From positions 1,754 to 65,753 of the IMG/VR virus record IMGVR_UViG_3300020202_000071: a stretch of 64,000 nucleotides of DNA. The stretch is one strand, 5' to 3'. This DNA is from a virus. Its lineage: Duplodnaviria; Caudoviricetes. This document shows positions 47,639 through 56,138 of this stretch, piece after piece. The notes beneath the pieces are model-generated. The model had not been told where the DNA came from, did no database searches, and saw nothing but the letters and a program-made list of their open reading frames with translations. Position numbers and translations under genes: made by a program. Positions within the stretch are counted from its first letter, which is position 1. Each line of letters starts with the position of its first letter.

Positions 47639-50033
47639 TCGGTGCGTCCATCGAATTGCCGACCGTGCGCATCATTCCCGCGACCCGCACGCCGCTGACG
47701 GGCGTCTACGTGGAGTATCACGGCGAACCGCAGCGCCAGGCACGCATTGAACGGGCGGTGGTGCCGGAGGACTTCATCATTCGCCTGCCGGATGACTGGC
47801 TATGCCTCGACGACCTGCAGGCGATTGCCGACTACGTCGCGATCACGGAAGGGCGGCCGATCGCGGCGATGACGATGCGACACGAGTTGCGCCGGAACGT
47901 GCTAATCCTTTACGAGCAGGACAAGCGCGCGTGCGGGCGCAGCCTGTCGGGATGTGTGAGCGGTGAGTTGCCGCTGCTGTCCGACGCGACCTACGCGCCG
48001 CGCGTCATCACCGTGCGATTGGAGCAGCGATCGTGAAGCTCGAAAATGAAGCGCTGATCGCCAGCGGCGCGCTTCTGACCTGCGACGGGTGCGGCAGCAA
48101 CGACGAGGTCATCCTGAAACGCCGATCGGACCGCGAGGGCTGGTTCTGCACGCTCTGCCGGCGTGCGGACATTCGGCGCCAGTACGCTCAGGTAGAGCAG
48201 ACGTTGCTCGGCGCGGCGGTCGGCATCCTGCGGAGGCTCTTTCGATGCTGACGACACGTCGAGGATTCTTTGGGCTCATCGCCACGCTCGTTTCGTGGCC
48301 CCTGACCAAGCTCCGAGCCCACGCGAACGCTGTAAACGGCCTCCGCACAAGCGAAGAGACGGGCGAAAGGCTTATTGACGGCACAACCGTCCTTGGCCGT
48401 GTGCACCGCGCGAGCGATGGCACCCCACTGCTCATCATCGACACGTTCGCGCCCACGGGGGCGGTCTACAGTGGCTCGTTAATCGTCGGCGGTGACGTCG
48501 TCAGAACGGTCAACAACCTGACCGAGTCGATGGCGGCCGCGCGCGAGGACGACGGCGACGACCTCGTGGACCGTGCGCAGTTCATTGCCGGCTTGCGGTT
48601 TGTTGCCTGGCGCACGCTGCATCACGTGTTGCCGCTCGAGGAGCGTCGCGCGATCGCGCGTCAGGCGAGCACAGCGCCGCGGCAGATGCCGTGGGTGACG
48701 GCGCGGGGCGAGTCATGAGCGCGCTCGCCACACTGCACTTCGAAGATTGGCCGGATTCGAGCACGATGATCGTTGTGCGGCCGGCGCCGTCCGGCGTGAC
48801 TTACGCGAATCAGACAGACGGCATCATGTGCCAGCACCGCGACGTCGAGGGATACGTCGAATCGGTGCTGCCGCTGCCGCGTGATGTTAAAACCTGCTGG
48901 TGCGGGCCTGATGCGGGTTGCCCGGAGACACTAATTCACCACCTGCGCTGCTACGGCTACGAACTGGACGGCGCCGATCGCGGTGAAGAGGGTTGGGTCA
49001 AGACGCGCTGCGGCGCGATCGTCTTGACGCCGAACTGCGATTGACGCCATGAAGCGCCGCACCTTCCTCGAACTGTTGACCGCCGCGGTCACGAGTGCGT
49101 TCGCCGGGCCGCTCCTGCCGTCGCTGACGTTGACGCCAGGGATCAAGTCTCGCGGACTCGATGAGCCGATGCCGGAGCCGACCGGCGGCGAGTACCTCTA
49201 CATGAGCGGCAGCGACGCGTACCGCGTGTATTTCACCGACAACACGTCGGTCGATGTGCCAGGCATCGAGATTGCGCGGGCACGCCGGCACGGGGACGCC
49301 AGTCAAGTCCGCGCAATGCTGCATCGCCTCTGGCGTGAGCAGCGGCAGGCGAGGTTGGCGTTGTGACCGCGCGGTGCTCCGTCTGCGGCCACGTGGCGCG
49401 TCTGCCAATCTTGCAAGTCTCCGCGCTCGGGGCGTGCATCCTCTGCCCTGATCAGCAGATCGCGATCGAAGAGTGCTTGCAACGTCGTCCGCCGGGTCGT
49501 CCGTGGTGGGCGTTCTGGCGTCGCCGTGTGCCGATGGAGGTGTACCTCGATGCACTGTTCGAGGCATTGCCGTGGCGGTTCACAGAAGTCTCATGACCGT
49601 CCGCGAGTGGTTCCGCGAGCTGCGGCGATCGCAGCCCCCGTCCGTCGAACTCCGCGAGTTCTGCGAGTCCCTTGTACGGGACGATGTCGATCGCCACGCG
49701 CGTGAAGCGCTCTTCCTCCAGGTGCTCATCGCCGCTGGATTGATGGACGATCCGCCTGGCGCGTTGACGTGGCACCGACTGCTCGCCGGCAGCAGCATCA
49801 TGACCGGCGCCTTGCAGCACGGCCGCGATGGCGAACCGCGCCTCGTGCTGCCGCCGCGGCCGCGCCTAGTGCCCGATGCGGACTACCCGCTCGTCGGGGT
49901 GTGGGTTACGGACCCTGATGAGCCGACGCTGCGTGACTTCGCCTCGGCAGCCGACTACGGCGTGCGCGATGCCTACGTGGCCTACTTGCACTTTCGTCCA
50001 GGAGTTTCGGGAGATCCGACCCCGGATTCGTGA
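47635..50033 (+). CDS. Cluster of small coupled hypothetical genes between terS-like and terL (47635-48036, 48033-48251, 48245-48718, 48715-49044, 49049-49366, 49363-49596, 49593-50033)
   Basis: Chain of ATGA/GTGA overlaps; two genes have twin-arginine-like leaders. Confidence 0.55.
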
Positions 50034-52597
50034 GCGGCAAGCGCGCAAAGCACGCGCGTCGGCTCGCCGCCCTCCGCAAAGGCTTCCTCTGGGGCTATCT
50101 CCACCCCTCTGGCTCGTGCCTGCACGAGCCGCCCTGTACGCCCTCTCGTGAACGCTGTCAGCCCCAACCCAAACAGGCGATCGCCCACGCGTCGACCGCA
50201 GAGGTCCTGTTCTACGGAGGCGCCGTCGGTGGAGGAAAAAGCGAATTCGGCCTGATCGAGGCGATCACGATCTGCCTCGAACACAAGAACGTCAAGGTCG
50301 CGTTCTTCCGCCGCAAGCTGCGCGAGCTTGAGCAGGAAATCATCGGGCGCTTCCTGCTGCTGGTGCCCGATTACATCGCCACCTACAACGCCAGTACGCA
50401 CGTCGCGAAGTTCTGGCAGGGCTCCGAGCTCTGGTTCTGCCACTGCCAGCACGAGAAGGACGTCTACACCTACCAGTCGGCGCAGTGGGTGGCGCTCTTC
50501 ATCGACGAGAGCACGCACTTCACCGAGTTCATCGTCCGGTATCTGATCACGCGCGTCCGCTCGGCACGTATCGGGATGCGGAAGCGCATCCGCCTGATGT
50601 CCAACCCGGGCGGCGTCGGTCACGGCTTTCACAAACGCTGGTTTATCCGTCCGGTGCCCGACGAGCTCGGCACGCGTCCCGCGCCGGCGCCGTTTGCGAT
50701 CTGGCGTCCGCTGCCGCTGCCGAACGACCCGACCCCACCGGAGCATGTGCCGACGCGCCAGTTCATCCCGGCCTGGTTCCACGACAACGTGGCGCTCGCG
50801 AGCGCGGACCCCGCCTATCTCGCCAAGGTCTGGGCGCTCGGGGGTGACAAGGCGAAGCAGCTCGCCGAGGGTGATTGGGACGCCAACGACTCGATGATTG
50901 TCGGCTCGACGTGGCGTGAGAAGCGGCTCGTGCAAGCGAGCGATCACGCGCTCCTGGCCCTCGGGCTGAAGGTCGGCCAGATCATCCCCTGGCACATCAT
51001 CCCGAACCCGCAGTGGAAGCCACCGAAGGGGGCGACGATCTGGGGGAGCGTCGATTACGGCTACGGCGCCCCGTGGGCGTTCCACCTACACGCGGGCTTA
51101 CCGGGCGGCCATATCCGCACGTTCTTCGAGTTCTACATGCCGAAGAAGCGTGACGTCGAGCAGGCGCGCATGATCGCCAAAGTGCTGCGCGAGAACCACT
51201 GGCAACCCGAGTGGATCGTGATGGATCCGTCGATGTGGAACTCACGCGCCGAACAGGGGCTCGCGAAGTCGATCGCCGAAGTCTACGCCGACGAGATCCA
51301 GTCGATCTGCCAGCTGCGCAAGGGTGCCGCCGGTCGATCAGCCCGCGTGTCGCGCCCGCAACGGTGGCTTGCCGCGTTGCAGCCGGCCGCCGATGGTCTG
51401 CCGAATTGGACCGTCACGACTGCCTGTCCGGATCTCATTCGCACCGTACCCGACGTGCCCTGGGATCCGGAGGACCCGGAGGTCGAGGACGATTCGAGCG
51501 AGAACCACTGCATCGCCGCCGGCACCCTCATCGACACGAGTGAAGGTCCGAAGCCGATCGAGCAGATCATCGCCGGCGATCTCGTCCTGACGCGCAAAGG
51601 CTACCGCCCGGTGCTACGGGCCTGGCTCACGAATCCTGATGCCGAAGTCCTTGAGGTGACATGTTCGGACGGTCGCGCGTTGCGAGCGACGGCGAATCAT
51701 CGCGTCTTTGAAAAGAATCAAGGATTCATTGAATTTGGAGAATTAGCCGAAGGCTTCATACTGCATAATCACTCAGAGATTTCGCGATGGTTGAAGGTCC
51801 GATCGTTATTTCAGACACCGCGCAGGAATGGCGTGAAGTGGTCTATTACAAGTGCGGTCGCTACTTTGCGCGCCGCGGCTACGGTCGGTTGCACCGGCGC
51901 GTCTGGCGCGATGTCTACGGGCGCATCCCCTACGGCTGTCACATCCACCACAAGGACAACAACCCGGCGAACAACCATCCGTCGAATCTCGAACTCCTCC
52001 ATCGCAAGCAGCATTTGTCGATGCACAGCCGCAATCCGACGGAGCGGCAGCGCGCCGCGCGCCGCGAAAACCTGCGATACGCCTCGGAGATCCGCATGGC
52101 AAGACCGAGCATCATCGTGGCGTGCTCGCATTGCGGCGAGCCTGCAGCAGTGGCTGAAGGGCAACTACGCGTTCGCAACTACTGCTCACGGCAGTGCCGG
52201 TGGAACGCCTTCGATAAACGCCAACGCGATGCGCAGCCCGCGCGTGAGGTCATCTGCGCCGGCTGTGGGAAAGCTTTCCAGACCAAACGGCGCGGCAAAC
52301 GCTTCTGCGGGGACGTCGCGTGTTATTACCGTGCGGCCAAGCGGGCGAACAGCGGTGTACGACCTGACGGTCGCTGACGCGCACGAGTTCTTCGCCAACG
52401 GCATCCTCGTTCACAACTGCTACGAAGGGGTCGGGCGCTTCTTTGAGGCGCGGCCGTTCGTGCCGGCGCCGGCCCCGTTCGATCCGTATGAGGGTCTCGA
52501 CCCGATTTCGCGTGCGCATCACGAGGCGCTCGAGAAGAAACATCGCAGCCGGGTCGGCGGGGCGATGGGGATCGGCAACCTGGCGAATCAGGGGTGA
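50030..52597 (+). CDS. terL: Terminase large subunit with intein
   Basis: YGGAVGGGKS Walker A, FIDES Walker B, SNPGGVGH, LAEGDWD and VDYGY nuclease motifs. Confidence 0.95.
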   Translation: MSGKRAKHARRLAALRKGFLWGYLHPSGSCLHEPPCTPSRERCQPQPKQAIAHASTAEVLFYGGAVGGGKSEFGLIEAITICLEHKNVKVAFFRRKLRELEQEIIGRFLLLVPDYIATYNASTHVAKFWQGSELWFCHCQHEKDVYTYQSAQWVALFIDESTHFTEFIVRYLITRVRSARIGMRKRIRLMSNPGGVGHGFHKRWFIRPVPDELGTRPAPAPFAIWRPLPLPNDPTPPEHVPTRQFIPAWFHDNVALASADPAYLAKVWALGGDKAKQLAEGDWDANDSMIVGSTWREKRLVQASDHALLALGLKVGQIIPWHIIPNPQWKPPKGATIWGSVDYGYGAPWAFHLHAGLPGGHIRTFFEFYMPKKRDVEQARMIAKVLRENHWQPEWIVMDPSMWNSRAEQGLAKSIAEVYADEIQSICQLRKGAAGRSARVSRPQRWLAALQPAADGLPNWTVTTACPDLIRTVPDVPWDPEDPEVEDDSSENHCIAAGTLIDTSEGPKPIEQIIAGDLVLTRKGYRPVLRAWLTNPDAEVLEVTCSDGRALRATANHRVFEKNQGFIEFGELAEGFILHNHSEISRWLKVRSLFQTPRRNGVKWSITSAVATLRAAATVGCTGASGAMSTGASPTAVTSTTRTTTRRTTIRRISNSSIASSICRCTAAIRRSGSAPRAAKTCDTPRRSAWQDRASSWRARIAASLQQWLKGNYAFATTAHGSAGGTPSINANAMRSPRVRSSAPAVGKLSRPNGAANASAGTSRVITVRPSGRTAVYDLTVADAHEFFANGILVHNCYEGVGRFFEARPFVPAPAPFDPYEGLDPISRAHHEALEKKHRSRVGGAMGIGNLANQG
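51509..52417 (+). mobile_element. Intein (303 aa) in the terminase nuclease domain
   Basis: Block A CIAAGTLI, block B ATANHRV, blocks F/G VYDLTVADAHEFFANGILVHN, +1 Cys. Confidence 0.95.
51787..52377 (+). CDS. HNH endonuclease with Zn fingers, nested out of frame in the intein
   Basis: LHRRVW...G.IP.GCHIHHKDNNPANNHPSNLELL...H...H; CSHC, YCSRQC, CAGC and FCGDVAC. Confidence 0.9.
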   Translation: MVEGPIVISDTAQEWREVVYYKCGRYFARRGYGRLHRRVWRDVYGRIPYGCHIHHKDNNPANNHPSNLELLHRKQHLSMHSRNPTERQRAARRENLRYASEIRMARPSIIVACSHCGEPAAVAEGQLRVRNYCSRQCRWNAFDKRQRDAQPAREVICAGCGKAFQTKRRGKRFCGDVACYYRAAKRANSGVRPDGR

Positions 52598-52783
52598 CAA
52601 GGGGGGGTGACAATCCGCTGGCTGACCCGTCGAGCTACTACCCCTTGTATTCAATCCCGGCTGTTTTGCTACTCTGCCGTGGGGGGAGCGAGCCGGGACA
52701 TTCCCCGAGGCGACCGTGCTAGCACACGGAGAATCGACGGACTTCCGGCTCGCGCCTTTTGCCCGATCTCACCCGGACAACCT

Positions 52784-53257
52784 ATGGGCCTAGCCGAACG
52801 CGTCAGCCGTCGCAGCGTCGTGAAGACCGCCGAAGCCGCGGCGATGACAGTCAATCAGTGCGTCGCCGCAGTCAACGAGCAGGCGACGCACGTCGCCGCC
52901 GTCGAACGCGAGATCAAGGACGTGCGGTCGACGATCGATGCGCTTCGCGCGCGCCTCGAAAGGCACCAGAAGGACGCCACCGAGCGGATGGACGGCCAGG
53001 GCGGGATGCTGCTCGTCAATGAGAAGGCGATCGCTGACGTCAAGAAACGCATCGTGCCGATTGAGCGCGCGCTGTTTGGCGGGTCCGAAGCCGAGCGTGA
53101 GCTGCTCGATACGCACACGGCGCTCATGGATCGGTTCTATCGGCAGTGCCGAATGTTCGACGCGGCGATGGACGACCTGCGCCACGGGCGCATCGTGCTG
53201 TCGAACGTCGGCTTCTTCGGCCGGCTACGGTTCCTGCTCACCGGGAGGGCTTCGTAA
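52784..53257 (+). CDS. Coiled-coil hypothetical protein
   Basis: C-terminal FFGRLRFLLTGR amphipathic tail. Confidence 0.6.
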   Translation: MGLAERVSRRSVVKTAEAAAMTVNQCVAAVNEQATHVAAVEREIKDVRSTIDALRARLERHQKDATERMDGQGGMLLVNEKAIADVKKRIVPIERALFGGSEAERELLDTHTALMDRFYRQCRMFDAAMDDLRHGRIVLSNVGFFGRLRFLLTGRAS

Positions 53258-53428
53258 GTGGAGAAGATCACGATCCCCGCCGGCACGGTCGTCAAGATCA
53301 ACGGTATTCCGCTCGAACTGACGTCGGATACCGAGATGCTCACGCACCGCGCCAACGCCGAACTGATTCGGCCATGGTTTGGTGAGCCGAAGGACGAGAC
53401 GCCGCGCATCCAGCGGCAGGGCGACTGA
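53258..53428 (+). CDS. Hypothetical protein (56 aa)
   Basis: GGAGG RBS; abuts both neighbours. Confidence 0.5.
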   Translation: MEKITIPAGTVVKINGIPLELTSDTEMLTHRANAELIRPWFGEPKDETPRIQRQGD

Positions 53429-53734
53429 ATGTTCACGCGCCTGCGCCTCGCGTTCCGTGCCCTGTTCGGGATCGCCGATCCCGCACCGGTGCCGTGTGCG
53501 CGCTGCGTGGAACTCGCCCAGGAACGCGACTACTGGAAAGCGCGTGAAGAGCGCACCGCCGATCGACTGCTCGAGCGCCAAGGTATTGCGCCCGTCGCGC
53601 AAACGCCGGCGCCGCCGCCCATCAATCCGATGGCGCTCGCCATGCACGCCATGACCATCACCGAGATCGACAGCACGAAAACCAAGTCACCGCAGCCGGG
53701 CCGGGATGCGATGACCCGTGGAGCCGCGCACTGA
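53429..53734 (+). CDS. Hypothetical protein
   Basis: CARC plus coiled coil; precedes the portal gene. Confidence 0.55.
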   Translation: MFTRLRLAFRALFGIADPAPVPCARCVELAQERDYWKAREERTADRLLERQGIAPVAQTPAPPPINPMALAMHAMTITEIDSTKTKSPQPGRDAMTRGAAH

Positions 53735-56138
53735 CCCCGCTGCGGCACAGGCTGCCGCTCCCGGCCAGGCGACGCCCGAGCGCAAGATCGATTACGTCGG
53801 CCAGGGCAAAGCGCTGATCGAGAAGTGCATCGCCGAAGCGGCGTCGAATCACGCGCGCCTGCTGCGCGACCGCGCCGACATCCTCAATCAGAAATTCGAC
53901 CGCGGCGGCCGCGCCAATCAGTGGTGCGTCTGGGACCAAGGCACGGGACGCTACGTCGAACGTGGCACCGATCCCGAGCAAGGCGGCCTGCCGGAATATA
54001 TTCCGCGCCCCGTCACCAATGTCTTCAACGTCGTGATCGATGGGATCTGCGCGATCCTCGATCAGTCCGAACCCGCGCAAGTCTTCGGCCCGAACACGGA
54101 CGCGGACAGCGACAAAGCGGCCGCGGAAGTCGCGGCCGATGCCGTGCCGGTGCTGCGGGAGGAATGCGGATACGACTCCGAAGGCCACCGCCACGAGTTG
54201 AACCGCTTGTCGACGCTCATCGACAAGTGCCTCTACCTCCTCTACTACGACAACGACCCCAAGCACGGCATGGGCGAGGTCGAGTTGTTCTCGTGCGGCC
54301 AGTGCGGCGAGGTGGTTGAGCCGATGGAAGTCGAGGACGCCGGCGGGAAGTGCCCCCATTGCGAGTACGCGGAGACGGAGCACTTCGAGCTCGTCACCGA
54401 CCCGACGACGGCCCTGCCGATCACGATCCCGATGCCAAAGGGCCGGATTCGTGGCGAGATCATCCCGAGCTACGAGTTCACGCTGCCGTCCTCATGTCGG
54501 CGGCCGAACGCGAAAGCCGCGCCGTGGATCCTGACGCACTCGCGGATGGCGCCGCAGGACGTCGCGCGCATGTGGCCCGCGGCCGCCGCGATCGCCGACG
54601 ACAAGTCGAAGTGGGCCTCGGGCTCTCTGACGCGGGCCTACGCCGATCAAATGCGGGCGCTCTCGAGCCCCGCGACCGGTGAGACCGGGAGTCGCACGGG
54701 ATCGCAGGAAGTGGATGGGCCCGTCGTGTATCGCCTGATGCACGACCCGATCGAGGATCGCGACTTTTACTTCCCGAAGGGTTTTTTCGGCGTGCTGATC
54801 GGTGGCGAGCTCGTGGAGAAAGGGCCGCTGCCGTTCGAGGACGGCAACGGCACGCCGGTCAAGCACGGCATCGTGCGCACGTATGTGGACGGCACGGGCT
54901 CGCAGTTCGGCCACCCGCCGGGCGATGACTTGGTGCCGCTGCAGCAGTCGCGCAATCTCGTCGAGTCGATGATCCAGTTGATCATCATGCACGACGCGGC
55001 GCCGACGAAGTACCTGCCGGAAACCGTCACGCTGGTCGATCAGCCGACCGGCGTCCCGGGCGAATGGGTGCGCTACCGCTCGCTGGATGGGCAGAAGCCC
55101 ACCGAGAGCCGCGGCATGAATCCGCCCGAGTCGCTGTTCAACTACCTCGATCGCATCGACGCAAAGTTCCAAGAGGTCAGCCGGCTCAATTCCGTGCTCT
55201 CCGGGCAACGGCCGTCTGGCGATCCGACGCTCGGCGAAGTCCAGATCCTCGAAGAGCGCGGCATGGCCGCGTTCAGAGCCCCGCTCGACTGCCTGATCCA
55301 GTTCGAGAAGGATCTGTCGTTCCTGCTGTTGACGATTGCGCGGCAGTGCGCGTGGTCGCCGCGCTTCCGCCGCATCCGCGGCGAGGACAAGCAGTGGGAG
55401 ATCAAGCAATTCGCGAGCGCGGACCTCTCGGGCGAGATCGACATCACGGTCGCGCGCGCGTCGGCATGGCCGAAATCGCCGCTGATGCAGCAGCTCCGCA
55501 TCAAGGAAGCGCTGTCCGGTGGCGTGCTGCCGCCGCCGATGCAAGACCCCGAGTTGCAGGGCCAGTTGCTCGTCGACATGGACCTGGCGCACCTGAAGAA
55601 GTCGTGGGACGTCGATCGCCGGCAGATCGCGCGCGAGCTCGATGTGTGGCGCCACGCGCACACGCCCGACGAGATCATGGCCGCCGCGCCGGATCCACAC
55701 ATCATCGAGATCTCCCTGCATCTCTATCTGAAAAAGAACTTCCTGAAAACCGAGGAAGCGGAAGAGATCCGGCTGGCGAATCCGCCGGTCTATCAGGCGA
55801 TGGTGCAGCAGGTGCTCGGGCTCGAGCAGCACATGCAGATGAAGGCGATGCAGGCGGCCGCGATCCAAGCGGGCCCGCAAACGCCGGCCGCACCCGGTGG
55901 CGAGGGCGCGCTCGACGCCGCGCTGGAAGCCGGCGCTGTCGCACCCGCCGAGGAACCGCAGCCCGAAGCGTTGGCCGCGGCAATGGAATCAGGCGCGTTG
56001 ATGCCCGCGGGCGCGGGCGAGGCGATGGCCGCCGCGGCGGCGGCTGGCCCGTCGATGGACGACCTGTTGGAAGCGAAGTTGTTACTCCCGGTGACGCCGG
56101 ACGAGGGCGCCGCGCATGCAGGCGTGCCCCCGCTGTAA
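53718..56138 (+). CDS. Portal protein with Zn-ribbon insertion
   Basis: 806 aa between terL and scaffold. VTNVF, D.D..AAEVA and DDLVPLQ..RN motifs; CGQC/CPHC insert. Confidence 0.8.
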   Translation: MEPRTDPAAAQAAAPGQATPERKIDYVGQGKALIEKCIAEAASNHARLLRDRADILNQKFDRGGRANQWCVWDQGTGRYVERGTDPEQGGLPEYIPRPVTNVFNVVIDGICAILDQSEPAQVFGPNTDADSDKAAAEVAADAVPVLREECGYDSEGHRHELNRLSTLIDKCLYLLYYDNDPKHGMGEVELFSCGQCGEVVEPMEVEDAGGKCPHCEYAETEHFELVTDPTTALPITIPMPKGRIRGEIIPSYEFTLPSSCRRPNAKAAPWILTHSRMAPQDVARMWPAAAAIADDKSKWASGSLTRAYADQMRALSSPATGETGSRTGSQEVDGPVVYRLMHDPIEDRDFYFPKGFFGVLIGGELVEKGPLPFEDGNGTPVKHGIVRTYVDGTGSQFGHPPGDDLVPLQQSRNLVESMIQLIIMHDAAPTKYLPETVTLVDQPTGVPGEWVRYRSLDGQKPTESRGMNPPESLFNYLDRIDAKFQEVSRLNSVLSGQRPSGDPTLGEVQILEERGMAAFRAPLDCLIQFEKDLSFLLLTIARQCAWSPRFRRIRGEDKQWEIKQFASADLSGEIDITVARASAWPKSPLMQQLRIKEALSGGVLPPPMQDPELQGQLLVDMDLAHLKKSWDVDRRQIARELDVWRHAHTPDEIMAAAPDPHIIEISLHLYLKKNFLKTEEAEEIRLANPPVYQAMVQQVLGLEQHMQMKAMQAAAIQAGPQTPAAPGGEGALDAALEAGAVAPAEEPQPEALAAAMESGALMPAGAGEAMAAAAAAGPSMDDLLEAKLLLPVTPDEGAAHAGVPPL

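What the first reader, a model, noticed from the sequence alone, without database searches (positions are those of the whole stretch)
51509..52417. Terminase intein whose homing endonuclease is a separate gene nested in another reading frame
Seen in sequence: the terL frame runs unbroken through a 303-aa intein (C1 at 51509, HN at 52412-52417, +1 Cys). Its ~200-aa middle is Ser/Thr/Ala/Arg-rich with no recognisable domain. The same DNA in the -1 frame is a complete ORF (ATG 51787 to TGA 52377) encoding an HNH nuclease (HHKDNNPANN..NL) with four CxxC-type Zn knuckles. Established: canonical inteins carry the endonuclease in frame between blocks B and F. Inference: this is a dual-coding mobile element in which the nuclease is expressed independently of terminase translation and splicing, while the intein tolerates off-frame filler. 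I cannot check whether it has already been reported in other phages.
Basis: partly seen in the sequence, partly recalled or inferred. Interest (0 to 1): 0.92.

Follow-up and report, generated by a model that had tools for sequence, protein, structure and literature searches.

The report
Terminase intein with overlapping HNH gene
A phage DNA-packaging gene carries a self-splicing protein insert whose middle also encodes, one base out of frame, a separate DNA-cutting enzyme that probably spreads the insert; the layout is real and common in phages, but its general kind was first described in 2025.

Summary
The terL ORF (50030-52597) reads unbroken through a 303-aa class-1 intein (51509-52417). 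A 196-aa HNH_3 ORF (51787-52377) lies in the -1 frame. Codon-position GC, a confident fold (pLDDT 90.5, best match I-HmuI) and conservation mark the HNH frame as the selected one. The same DNA in the intein frame is Ser/Thr/Ala/Arg-rich filler with low fold confidence between two confident HINT halves.

It is not an assembly error. Contigs from a second sample and study agree across both frame junctions. The same two-frame layout occurs in 64 of 80 IMG/VR loci picked by HNH similarity and in 72 of 80 picked by the intein C-terminal block alone. None has the HNH in frame. Phages TJE1 and phiCDHM19 show the same layout. All 5 closest TerL relatives lack the intein at ENH|AYE.

Relatives of this HNH also occur free-standing beside terL, between split-intein halves, and once nested in the other frame.

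The general kind is in print (Gosselin et al. 2025 preprint; ShiLan; dnaX intein), for other nuclease families. This scan has already noted the same layout on other DNA. Expression, splicing and cleavage are untested here. This copy of the HNH lacks a motif that most relatives have.

The parts
50030..52597 (+). terL precursor ORF (855 aa, stop included). The GTG start is taken from the ORF list and is not verified.
   Evidence: ORF; Terminase_6N plus intein families; phrog_979 3.7e-35 and phrog_2 6.8e-25 on the N-extein.
50030..51508 (+). N-extein (493 aa), ending ...SSENH.
   Evidence: 5 of 5 relatives align up to residue 493 and then continue directly with AYE....
51509..52417 (+). Class-1 intein, 303 aa (Cys1 ... 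His-Asn).
   Evidence: Pfam. In a 38-sequence alignment the invariant residues are C1, T61, H64 and N303. AF2 HINT halves. Foldseek best hit is the gp41-1 mini-intein 6qaz, E 6.9e-08, TMt 0.87.
51509..51786 (+). N-terminal splicing part of the intein (blocks A and B, TANH at residues 61-64). Not overlapped by the HNH ORF.
   Evidence: pLDDT 93-98 for residues 1-90; sequence.
51787..52377 (+). Nested HNH endonuclease ORF (196 aa) in the -1 frame relative to terL. It comprises an HNH_3 catalytic core and two Cys4 zinc-ribbon modules.
51788..52375 (+). The same DNA read in the terL frame: about 196 aa of Ser/Thr/Ala/Arg-rich filler inside the intein.
   Evidence: 57% S+T+A+R. pLDDT about 40-63 for residues 100-265. 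Mean pairwise identity is 22% here against 38% in the HNH frame. The GC maximum falls at terL codon position 2, which is HNH position 3.
51766..51768 (+). TAA stop in the HNH frame, 6 codons upstream of ATG 51787. It closes the HNH frame to upstream read-in.
51600..51900 (+). Local GC dip (0.505-0.525, against about 0.64-0.68 around it) spanning the HNH start. The RNA around the ATG is no more structured than shuffles.
   Evidence: (z +1.41). The only SD-like element is GAGA, 7 nt before the ATG.
52316..52417 (+). C-terminal splicing part of the intein (blocks F and G, ...VYDLTVADAHEFFANGILVHN). The HNH ORF ends inside it, 40 nt before the intein end.
   Evidence: pLDDT 95-98 for residues 270-303. 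The same 34-88 nt offset is seen in 39 relatives.
52418..52597 (+). C-extein (59 aa plus stop), starting with the +1 Cys: CYEGVGRFFEARP...
   Evidence: Relatives have AYE[DG]VGRFFEARP at this point.
53718..56138 (+). Portal protein gene (context: packaging module).
   Evidence: phrog_156, 2.3e-18.

Best explanation
The large-terminase gene of this metagenomic phage (IMG/VR record of 65,753 bp) is interrupted by a mobile class-1 intein. It sits in a conserved motif near the TerL C-terminus, ...ENH|C....

A complete HNH homing-type endonuclease gene lies between the intein's N-terminal (blocks A/B) and C-terminal (blocks F/G) splicing parts, on the same strand but in the -1 frame.

Inferred mechanism:
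- Ribosomes translating terL read straight through the HNH gene in the terL frame. This yields about 196 residues of unstructured filler that loops out of the HINT fold.
- The two HINT halves still associate and splice, giving a 552-aa TerL.
- The HNH protein is made separately by internal initiation at ATG 51787 on the late terL mRNA.
- It nicks or cuts intein-less terL alleles (...GAGAACCAC|GCnTAYGAR...) in co-infecting relatives.
- Recombinational repair then copies the intein plus HNH into the cut allele, with co-conversion of the +1 codon from Ala to Cys.

Selection acts on the protein sequence in the HNH frame. In the terL frame it acts essentially only against stop codons.

The element is one member of a large family in which this two-frame state is the norm. 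That family interconverts with free-standing terL-adjacent HNH genes, split-intein ('fractured') terL genes and HNH-less mini-inteins.

Shown here: the anatomy, frame composition, folds, recurrence, empty sites and agreement of the assemblies. Inferred: HNH translation, splicing, cleavage specificity and homing.
For: **Anatomy and families:**

**The HNH frame is the coding one.** GC by position in the HNH frame is 0.64/0.51/0.73, and the maximum falls at terL position 2. AF2 mean pLDDT is 90.5 for the HNH. For the intein frame it is 93-98 (residues 1-90), about 40-63 (100-265) and 95-98 (270-303), using equally deep 38-row alignments.

**Not an artefact.** Logan contigs of run X2, from another sample and study, cover 51716-51991, 52057-52290 and 52328-52700 with 0 differences and 0 gaps. 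X1 covers the whole stretch but may be the source of this DNA.

**Recurrence.**
- 9 of 9 IMG/VR loci found with the HNH protein are nested.
- Of the 80 best loci from an HNH profile scan, 63 are nested with terL in the HNH+1 frame, 1 is nested in the +2 frame, 16 are not read-through and 0 are in frame.
- 5 of 8 MAG contigs are nested.
- Of 80 loci picked only by the intein C-terminal block, 72 have the HNH in the -1 frame, 0 in frame and 0 in the +1 frame. The other 8 have no HNH hit: 5 are cut by contig ends and 3 are mini-inteins.
- The isolated phages TJE1 and phiCDHM19 have the same layout.

**Stop avoidance.** In AT-rich phiCDHM19 the expected number of stops is 5-10.5 and the observed number is 0; 0 of 3000 shuffles were stop-free in each of three nulls.

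**Mobility.**
- 5 of 5 closest TerL relatives (54-68% identity) lack the intein exactly at ENH|AYE.
- GC3 of the intein N-terminal part is 0.63 and of the HNH 0.73, against 0.85 and 0.80 in the exteins.

**Independent translation.** A TAA lies 6 codons before the ATG and there is no slippery heptamer. The start region is GC-poor and unstructured. phiCDHM19 has AAGGAG 8 nt before its HNH start.

**Substitutions.** In 5 close pairs there are 50 synonymous and 88 non-synonymous changes in the HNH frame, against 31 and 107 in the terL frame.
Against: - No expression, splicing or cleavage data exist for this phage.
- The window's own stop avoidance is weak: P(no stop) is 0.04-0.24.
- The SD before ATG 51787 is poor (GAGA only), and no promoter-like site was found in 49000-54000.
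- This HNH lacks the WH..G..WH motif found in 54 of 59 distinct nested relatives (alignment). It also sits on a long branch, so this copy could be impaired.
- Read support comes from assembled contigs at low depth (3-4x in X2), not from raw reads, and X1 may be the source sample.
- The multi-locus stop count (182 expected, 0 observed) was made on loci already chosen for being open, so it is not an independent test.
- The close-pair substitution test rests mostly on one pair, L023/L025, which contributes 107 of the 138 differences.
Confidence: 0.85

Rival explanations
1. Assembly or sequencing artefact. The true sequence would be a canonical intein with the HNH domain in frame, and two compensating indels in the contig would create the apparent second frame.
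For: The record is a metagenome assembly. The only full-length holder, X1, may be its own source, and only contigs were available, not raw reads. For this window alone, an open terL frame is not very improbable.
Against: - Independent contigs from X2 agree across both junction zones with no gaps.
- 64 of 80 and 72 of 80 relatives have the same two-frame layout and 0 have the HNH in frame.
- A search of longer proteins found no in-frame fusion, though that is weak evidence.
- A TAA in the HNH frame lies 6 codons before the ATG.
- The isolated phages TJE1 and phiCDHM19 show the same offset.
Confidence: 0.02
2. The layout is real, but in this particular phage the HNH gene is a decaying relic that is no longer an active homing enzyme. 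The element would then behave as a mini-intein carrying inert, vertically inherited filler.
For: - The window's HNH lacks the WH..G..WH motif present in 54 of 59 distinct nested relatives.
- It sits on a long branch.
- Its SD is weak.
- HNH-less mini-inteins of the same family exist (L135, L156, L180), so loss does occur.
Against: - The ORF is intact at 196 codons.
- It keeps all 15 residues that are invariant in 38 homologues, including the HNH core and the first zinc ribbon.
- It folds with mean pLDDT 90.5.
- The +2 frame of the same DNA has 6 stops, so an unconstrained frame would not be expected to stay open.
- Other members also lack the motif: 4 other nested loci and several split ones.
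- The intein is absent from all 5 closest terL relatives, which fits a recent gain.
Confidence: 0.1
3. The HNH protein is a packaging accessory that works with terminase, like the HNH proteins encoded next to terminase genes in cos phages, rather than a homing enzyme.
For: Free-standing homologues sit directly beside terL in PAE1, CL2, EauM-23 and Shemara and in L084 and L093. A packaging role for terminase-adjacent HNH enzymes is proposed as speculation in PMC3592412 (passages seen).
Against: - 5 of 5 closest TerL relatives lack both the intein and the HNH, so it is dispensable for this terminase type.
- The protein is I-HmuI-like (HNH_3), which resembles a homing-endonuclease family.
- It travels with an intein, with split inteins, or alone, with at least 7 architecture changes on the HNH tree. 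That is the behaviour of a selfish element.
Confidence: 0.03
4. The HNH is not initiated internally. It would be made by programmed ribosomal frameshifting out of the terL frame, as an N-extein-IntN-HNH fusion.
For: The SD in the window is weak. The two frames overlap on the same mRNA.
Against: The HNH frame is closed by a TAA 6 codons upstream of the ATG. No X XXY YYZ heptamer occurs in the terL frame between 51509 and 51850. Relatives have their own start codons, some with good SDs: AAGGAG in phiCDHM19 and GAGGA in the Vibrio phage.
Confidence: 0.01

Closest known systems
Non-canonical actinobacteriophage inteins with a homing endonuclease in a separate reading frame (Gosselin, Arsenault & Gogarten, bioRxiv 10.1101/2025.01.02.630785; passages read)
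   Same: [quoted passage not shown]
- The host frame stays open.
- The in-frame translation of that stretch has no recognisable structure.
- Terminase large subunit is among the host proteins.
- The proposed origin is invasion of an intein by a free-standing HEN.
[quoted passage not shown]
   Same: The HNH is about 195 aa with zinc-finger modules, encoded in the third frame of a host gene that stays open through it. Its distribution is sporadic and homing-like. The same open question applies: how is the hidden ORF translated?
   Different: ShiLan has no intein splicing domain, so the filler stays in the methylase. Here, bona fide HINT halves flank the insert and can remove it. No Mycobacterium phage record appeared among the 27 tblastn hits to this HNH at E<=1e-5.
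[quoted passage not shown] That paper also cites Gorbalenya 1998, 'Non-canonical inteins', which I did not read.
   Same: The overlapping HE frame is under purifying selection while the intein frame is relaxed. Mini-intein, full-intein and empty alleles coexist. Secondary invasion of a mini-intein is proposed.
   Different: That case is a LAGLIDADG enzyme in a cellular dnaX gene, not an HNH in phage terL.
Fractured genes: split inteins with a free-standing endonuclease gene between the halves (Dassa et al. 2009, PMC2677866; passages read)
   Same: - The endonuclease gene sits at the HEN insertion point of the intein.
- Its 3' end overlaps the coding region of the C-terminal intein part (6-69 bp there; the HNH ends 40 nt before the intein end here).
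- A terminase locus was among their hosts.
- The best structural match of this intein is gp41-1. From recall, not from a call here, gp41-1 is one of those split inteins.
   Different: Here the host ORF is not broken: the terL frame reads through. Their nucleases were GIY-YIG and Vsr-like, not HNH. Split relatives of this element do exist (Vibrio phage 1.245.O; L026, L028, L034, L040).
I-HmuI, the HNH homing (nicking) endonuclease of Bacillus phage SPO1 (PDB 1u3e)

Membership tests
Class 1 intein (HINT splicing domain) | N-terminal Cys/Ser nucleophile, block B TxxH, C-terminal His-Asn, and a +1 Cys/Ser/Thr | tested here: met
   C1 (51509), T61-A-N-H64, H302-N303 and the +1 Cys (52418). C1, T61, H64 and N303 are invariant in 38 aligned inteins.
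Class 1 intein (HINT splicing domain) | HINT fold and profile match | tested here: met
   Pfam Intein_splicing 1.3e-11 (above its cut-off), Hint_2 and PT-HINT. In the AF2 model the N and C halves have pLDDT 93-98. Foldseek gives 40 PDB hits at E<=0.001; those listed are inteins or related HINT domains (hedgehog, BIL), and the best is gp41-1, 6.9e-08.
Class 1 intein (HINT splicing domain) | Inserted in frame at a conserved site of a host protein, with intein-less alleles in relatives | tested here: met
   5 of 5 closest TerL relatives read ...SENH|AYE... without the insert.
Class 1 intein (HINT splicing domain) | Protein splicing activity | not testable with these tools
   Inferred from the essential role of terL and the intact catalytic residues only.
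HNH (His-Me finger) homing endonuclease, HNH_3 / I-HmuI-like | Profile match and conserved HNH-motif residues | tested here: met
   PF13392 4.4e-13 (cut-off 24.8, score 49.1). phrog_15471 1.1e-24. H36, H54, H55, D57, N62, N63, N67 and H76 are invariant in 38 homologues.
HNH (His-Me finger) homing endonuclease, HNH_3 / I-HmuI-like | beta-beta-alpha-metal fold like that of I-HmuI | tested here: inconclusive
HNH (His-Me finger) homing endonuclease, HNH_3 / I-HmuI-like | Site-specific cleavage or nicking of the element-free allele, and gene conversion | not testable with these tools
   Only indirect evidence: sporadic distribution and lower GC3 than the exteins.
[quoted passage not shown] 2025) | HEN ORF between the splicing blocks in another frame, host frame open through it, and in-frame translation unstructured | tested here: met
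[quoted passage not shown] 2025) | Nuclease of their same-strand out-of-frame group, i.e. endonuclease VII-like | tested here: not met
Fractured gene / split intein with a free-standing HEG (Dassa et al. 2009) | Host gene broken into two ORFs, each carrying one intein half | tested here: not met
   terL is a single 855-codon ORF. Relatives L026, L028, L034, L040 and Vibrio phage 1.245.O do meet this feature.
Terminase-associated packaging HNH proteins | Conserved partner of the terminase across related phages | tested here: not met
   Absent from the terL region of 5 of 5 closest relatives.

The most novel reading that the evidence does not exclude
This is not a transient accident of a homing endonuclease gene landing in a mini-intein. 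It is a long-lived, selection-maintained dual-coding module that is the default state of a whole family of terL nuclease-domain inteins across many phage and host lineages.

The same HNH lineage moves between four states: free-standing next to terL, between split-intein halves (in either orientation), read-through in the -1 frame, and read-through in the other frame. All four would target the same conserved terL site.

If so, the family provides living intermediates for how inteins acquire and lose endonucleases. It would be the intein counterpart of 'collaborative homing' between free-standing endonucleases and introns. It would also show that an intein can tolerate about 200 residues of arbitrary polypeptide indefinitely.
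Probability: 0.4. Interest if true: 0.7.

Novelty: new member of a known kind. Interest (0 to 1): 0.45.

Why it matters
Canonical inteins carry their endonuclease in frame. An endonuclease that is a separate overlapping gene shows three things:

- The splicing domain and the homing enzyme are separable partners.
- A HINT domain can splice around a long meaningless insert.
- Automated annotation hides a functional gene inside an essential phage gene.

The family found around this window contains read-through, split, free-standing and mini-intein forms. That gives a natural series for testing the 'splicing domain first, endonuclease later' model of intein origin. It also offers compact HNH/zinc-ribbon nucleases whose target, the intein-less terL site, can be read directly from relatives.

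For this single window the value is mainly as one more well-documented, GC-rich member.

Tried and rejected
- **DNA similarity to known phages.** blastn of the terL region against 50,697 phage records found nothing.
- **In-frame fusion.** A search of proteins of 344-2000 aa with the HNH found none at E<=1e-5. The tool itself calls this weak evidence.
- **RNA evidence.** No RNA holder was listed among the sequencing runs, so nothing can be said about expression.
- **Promoters, terminators and RNA structure.** There were 0 sigma-70-like sites in 49000-54000 and 2 terminator-like sites (2.9 expected). There is no RNA structure at the HNH start (z +1.41). I take the latter only as 'not occluded'.
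- **Foldseek on the HNH model.** No hit at E<=0.001, so I used VIA-align instead.
- **Multi-locus stop count**. This is circular as a test because the loci had been chosen for an open frame. I rely on the unselected tallies and on phiCDHM19.
- **Close-pair substitution counts**. Only 5 usable pairs, dominated by one pair, so the support is weak.
- **HNH tree** (FastTree, 86 distinct sequences, 150-residue core). The nodes around the window have SH-like support of only 0.72-0.89, and no root or direction of change is claimed.
- **Motif regex.** My HNH-motif regex was too strict. It left 13 loci unassigned (two of them duplicate sequences), and identical sequences were counted once. The 54 of 59 figure refers to the nested sequences that passed.
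- **Classification regexes.** Block A or block G regexes missed in 9 of the 63 nested loci. I counted these as nested on frame openness and ORF length alone.
- **Output.** It was cut. L064 and parts of L046 and L071 were not seen, so their classes are uncertain.
- **Supplementary tables of the Gosselin preprint.** I could not see them. They may list terL inteins closer to this one.
- **Literature.** Four searches found no paper describing an out-of-frame HNH_3 gene in a terL intein. That is the basis for 'not found in print', and subscription journals are not covered.


Full report
**1. The observation**

The window comes from an IMG/VR virus record of 65,753 bp. A single ORF, 50030..52597 (855 aa), carries Terminase_6N and intein profiles. 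Its N-terminal 493 aa match terminase large-subunit PHROGs (phrog_979 3.7e-35, phrog_2 6.8e-25), and a portal gene follows at 53718-56138.

- Cys1 is at 51509.
- ...GILVHN ends at 52417.
- The +1 Cys is at 52418.
- The intein is 303 aa and the spliced TerL would be 552 aa.

A second ORF runs from ATG 51787 to TGA 52377 (196 aa). Its codons start one base upstream of terL codons. It matches Pfam HNH_3 (4.4e-13) and phrog_15471 (1.1e-24). It has two Cys4 zinc-ribbon modules: C113/C116/C133/C137 and C157/C160/C174/C179.

**2. Which frame carries the information**

In the exteins, GC is highest at codon position 3 (0.85 and 0.80). Across 51790-52300 the maximum moves to terL position 2, which is position 3 of the HNH frame.

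The overlap read in the terL frame is 57% Ser+Thr+Ala+Arg, against 26% in the N-extein.

I folded both products with AlphaFold2, using equally deep 38-row alignments:
- The HNH protein has mean pLDDT 90.5, with 145 of 196 residues at 90 or above.
- The intein has pLDDT 93-98 for residues 1-90 and 95-98 for residues 270-303, but only about 40-63 for residues 100-265.

The intein model matches mini-inteins. The best is gp41-1 (6qaz): E 6.9e-08, TM 0.87 on the target.

Across 38 relatives, the same DNA is 38% identical in the HNH frame and 22% identical in the intein frame. The flanking splicing parts are 33% and 45% identical.

**3. Not an artefact**

Logan contigs of run X2, from a different sample and study, cover 51716-51991, 52057-52290 and 52328-52700. 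These stretches include both places where compensating indels would have to lie. They show no differing letter and no gap. X1 covers the whole stretch but may be the source sample. These are contigs at low depth, not raw reads.

The stronger argument is recurrence.
- tblastn of the HNH against phage records hit 27 records.
- In Tetrasphaera phage TJE1 and Clostridium phage phiCDHM19, the match lies inside the annotated terL CDS at the same frame offset. terL reads through a Cys...SN|C intein in both.
- In Vibrio phage 1.245.O, terL is split around the HNH gene.

For phiCDHM19 (31% GC), 5-10.5 stops are expected in the terL frame across the HNH gene and none is observed. None of 3000 shuffles was stop-free in any of three null models. 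For the window alone, P(no stop) is only 0.04-0.24.

**4. Family size**

- 9 of 9 IMG/VR loci found with the HNH protein are nested.
- A profile scan gave at least 591 pattern matches, 411 of them confirmed by tblastn. Among the 80 best, 63 have terL open through the HNH gene in the HNH+1 frame, 1 (L024) in the +2 frame, 16 are not read-through, and none has the HNH in frame.
- 5 of 8 MAG contigs are nested. They are labelled Ktedonobacterales, Kangiellaceae, Saprospiraceae, Gammaproteobacteria and Selenomonadaceae.
- As a sample that does not depend on the HNH, I scanned for the intein C-terminal block E[FY]FANG[IV]LVHN. Of the 80 loci returned (out of at least 113), 72 have an HNH hit in the -1 frame (HMM E<=1e-5), 0 in frame and 0 in the +1 frame.
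- The remaining 8 have no HNH hit. 5 are cut by contig ends, and 3 (L135, L156, L180) are mini-inteins, which I estimate by eye from the printouts at about 130-135 aa.

In 39 loci the HNH stop lies 34-88 nt before the intein end, inside block F. In the window the distance is 40 nt.

This scan's earlier notes report the same layout in at least 79 other genomes. My tallies agree with them independently.

**5. Mobility**

The five closest TerL relatives (54-68% identity) all lack the intein. They read ...SENH|AYE[DG]VGRFFEARP where the window reads ...SENH|[intein]|CYEGVGRFFEARP.

At the DNA level, the empty sites are ...GAGAACCAC|GCnTAYGAR.... The window therefore differs at the +1 codon: TGC instead of GCn.

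GC3 of the intein N-terminal part (0.63) and of the HNH (0.73) is below that of the exteins (0.85 and 0.80). This fits acquisition from a less GC-rich source.

**6. How the HNH is probably made**

- The HNH frame is closed by a TAA six codons before ATG 51787.
- No slippery heptamer lies upstream in the terL frame.
- The start sits in a local GC dip, 0.505-0.525.
- The RNA there is no more structured than shuffles, z +1.41.

The SD is weak in the window (GAGA). It is good in phiCDHM19 (AAGGAG, 8 nt before the start) and in the Vibrio phage (GAGGA).

Internal initiation on the terL mRNA is therefore the simplest reading. It has not been shown.

**7. Evolutionary setting**

Free-standing homologues lie directly beside an intein-less terL:
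- PAE1, CL2 and EauM-23 have the order terS-terL-HNH-portal.
- In Shemara, L084 and L093 the HNH is on the opposite strand, between terL and portal.

Split forms have the HNH between a terL-N/IntN ORF and, where one was seen, an IntC/C-extein ORF: L026, L028, L034, L040, L046 and L088. L072 and L092 are split forms with the HNH antisense (whose output was cut).

On a FastTree of 86 distinct HNH cores, the window groups with L024, the split forms and L093, with SH-like support of 0.72-0.75. A clade of 22 sequences with support 0.89 mixes free-standing, split and nested forms. Parsimony needs at least 7 changes between nested and not nested. The supports are moderate, and no direction of change is claimed.

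In L024, terL runs in the HNH+2 frame. There 19.8 stops are expected and none is observed, with 0 of 2000 shuffles stop-free.

**8. Caveat for this copy**

The window's HNH lacks a WH..G..WH motif of about 21 residues, located between the catalytic core and the first zinc ribbon.
- 37 of the 37 other sequences in alignment A3 have it.
- 54 of the 59 distinct nested sequences that passed my regex have it.
- Four other nested members and several split members also lack it.

All 15 residues that are invariant across the family are present in the window's copy. I put the chance that this copy is inactive at about 10%.

**9. What is known**

- Gosselin, Arsenault & Gogarten (bioRxiv 10.1101/2025.01.02.630785; passages read) report inteins whose endonuclease lies in a separate frame. 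These include a same-strand 'frame 3' endonuclease VII-like enzyme, with terminase among the hosts. Their HNH inteins are in frame.
- Arsenault et al. (PMC11855218; passages read) describe an out-of-frame HNH of 195 aa inside a methylase gene that has no intein.
- Phillips et al. (bioRxiv 10.64898/2026.09.14.751524; abstract and section 17 read) describe an out-of-frame endonuclease in the dnaX intein and cite Gorbalenya 1998.
- Dassa et al. 2009 (PMC2677866; passages read) describe split inteins with a free-standing endonuclease gene between the halves.

Four full-text searches found no description of an HNH_3 gene overlapping a terL intein. Supplements were closed.

**10. Verdict**

The element is a new member of a recently described kind: the same architecture with a different nuclease family. 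It belongs to a large family that this scan has already met many times.

Interest is moderate for this window (0.45). The family-level picture deserves more. It comprises the two-frame state as the norm, the interconversion of states, and the existence of two frame solutions.

Noticed in passing
L024:1452-3734 (terL) and L024:2992-3537 (HNH): The nearest HNH relative of the window on the tree is nested in a terL intein in the other frame: terL runs in the HNH+2 frame. In that frame 19.8 stops are expected and 0 are observed, with 0 of 2000 shuffles stop-free. This is a second frame solution to the same overlap.
   Followed up: partly
L072 and L092 (IMG/VR loci): These are split terL genes whose intein halves flank an HNH gene on the opposite strand. 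They are an antisense version of the 'fractured gene' layout.
   Followed up: no
L019 (PAE1), L020 (CL2), L021 (Shemara), L022 (EauM-23), L084, L093: Free-standing homologues of this HNH sit immediately next to the 3' end of an intein-less terL, between terL and portal. They may cut the same terL region that the intein occupies in other phages.
   Followed up: partly
L135, L156, L180: These are HNH-less mini-inteins, by my estimate about 130-135 aa, with the same C-terminal block in terL, apparently at the equivalent site. In the printout, L156 terL also appears to carry a second, upstream intein with a LAGLIDADG-like motif.
   Followed up: partly
L002:3-2522 (Vibrio phage 1.245.O terL N-part): The same terL has an additional upstream intein with LAGLIDADG-like motifs (...LGDGSIDK...LMDTDGTV...THN|T), besides the split intein that flanks the HNH gene.
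   Followed up: no
window 51509-52377 compared with 50030-51508: GC3 of the intein N-terminal part (0.63) and of the HNH (0.73) is clearly below that of the exteins (0.85 and 0.80). The element has not been brought to the host phage's composition.
   Followed up: partly
window 52040-52110 (HNH residues about 85-105): This HNH lacks the WH..G..WH motif of about 21 residues that 54 of 59 distinct nested relatives carry. The deletion is a multiple of three, so it keeps both frames.
   Followed up: partly
window 49982-51085, minus strand: A 367-codon antisense ORF lies opposite terL, and many ORFs of 80-130 codons occur in all frames. This is typical of chance open frames in DNA of about 65% GC and is not treated as a gene.
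   Followed up: no
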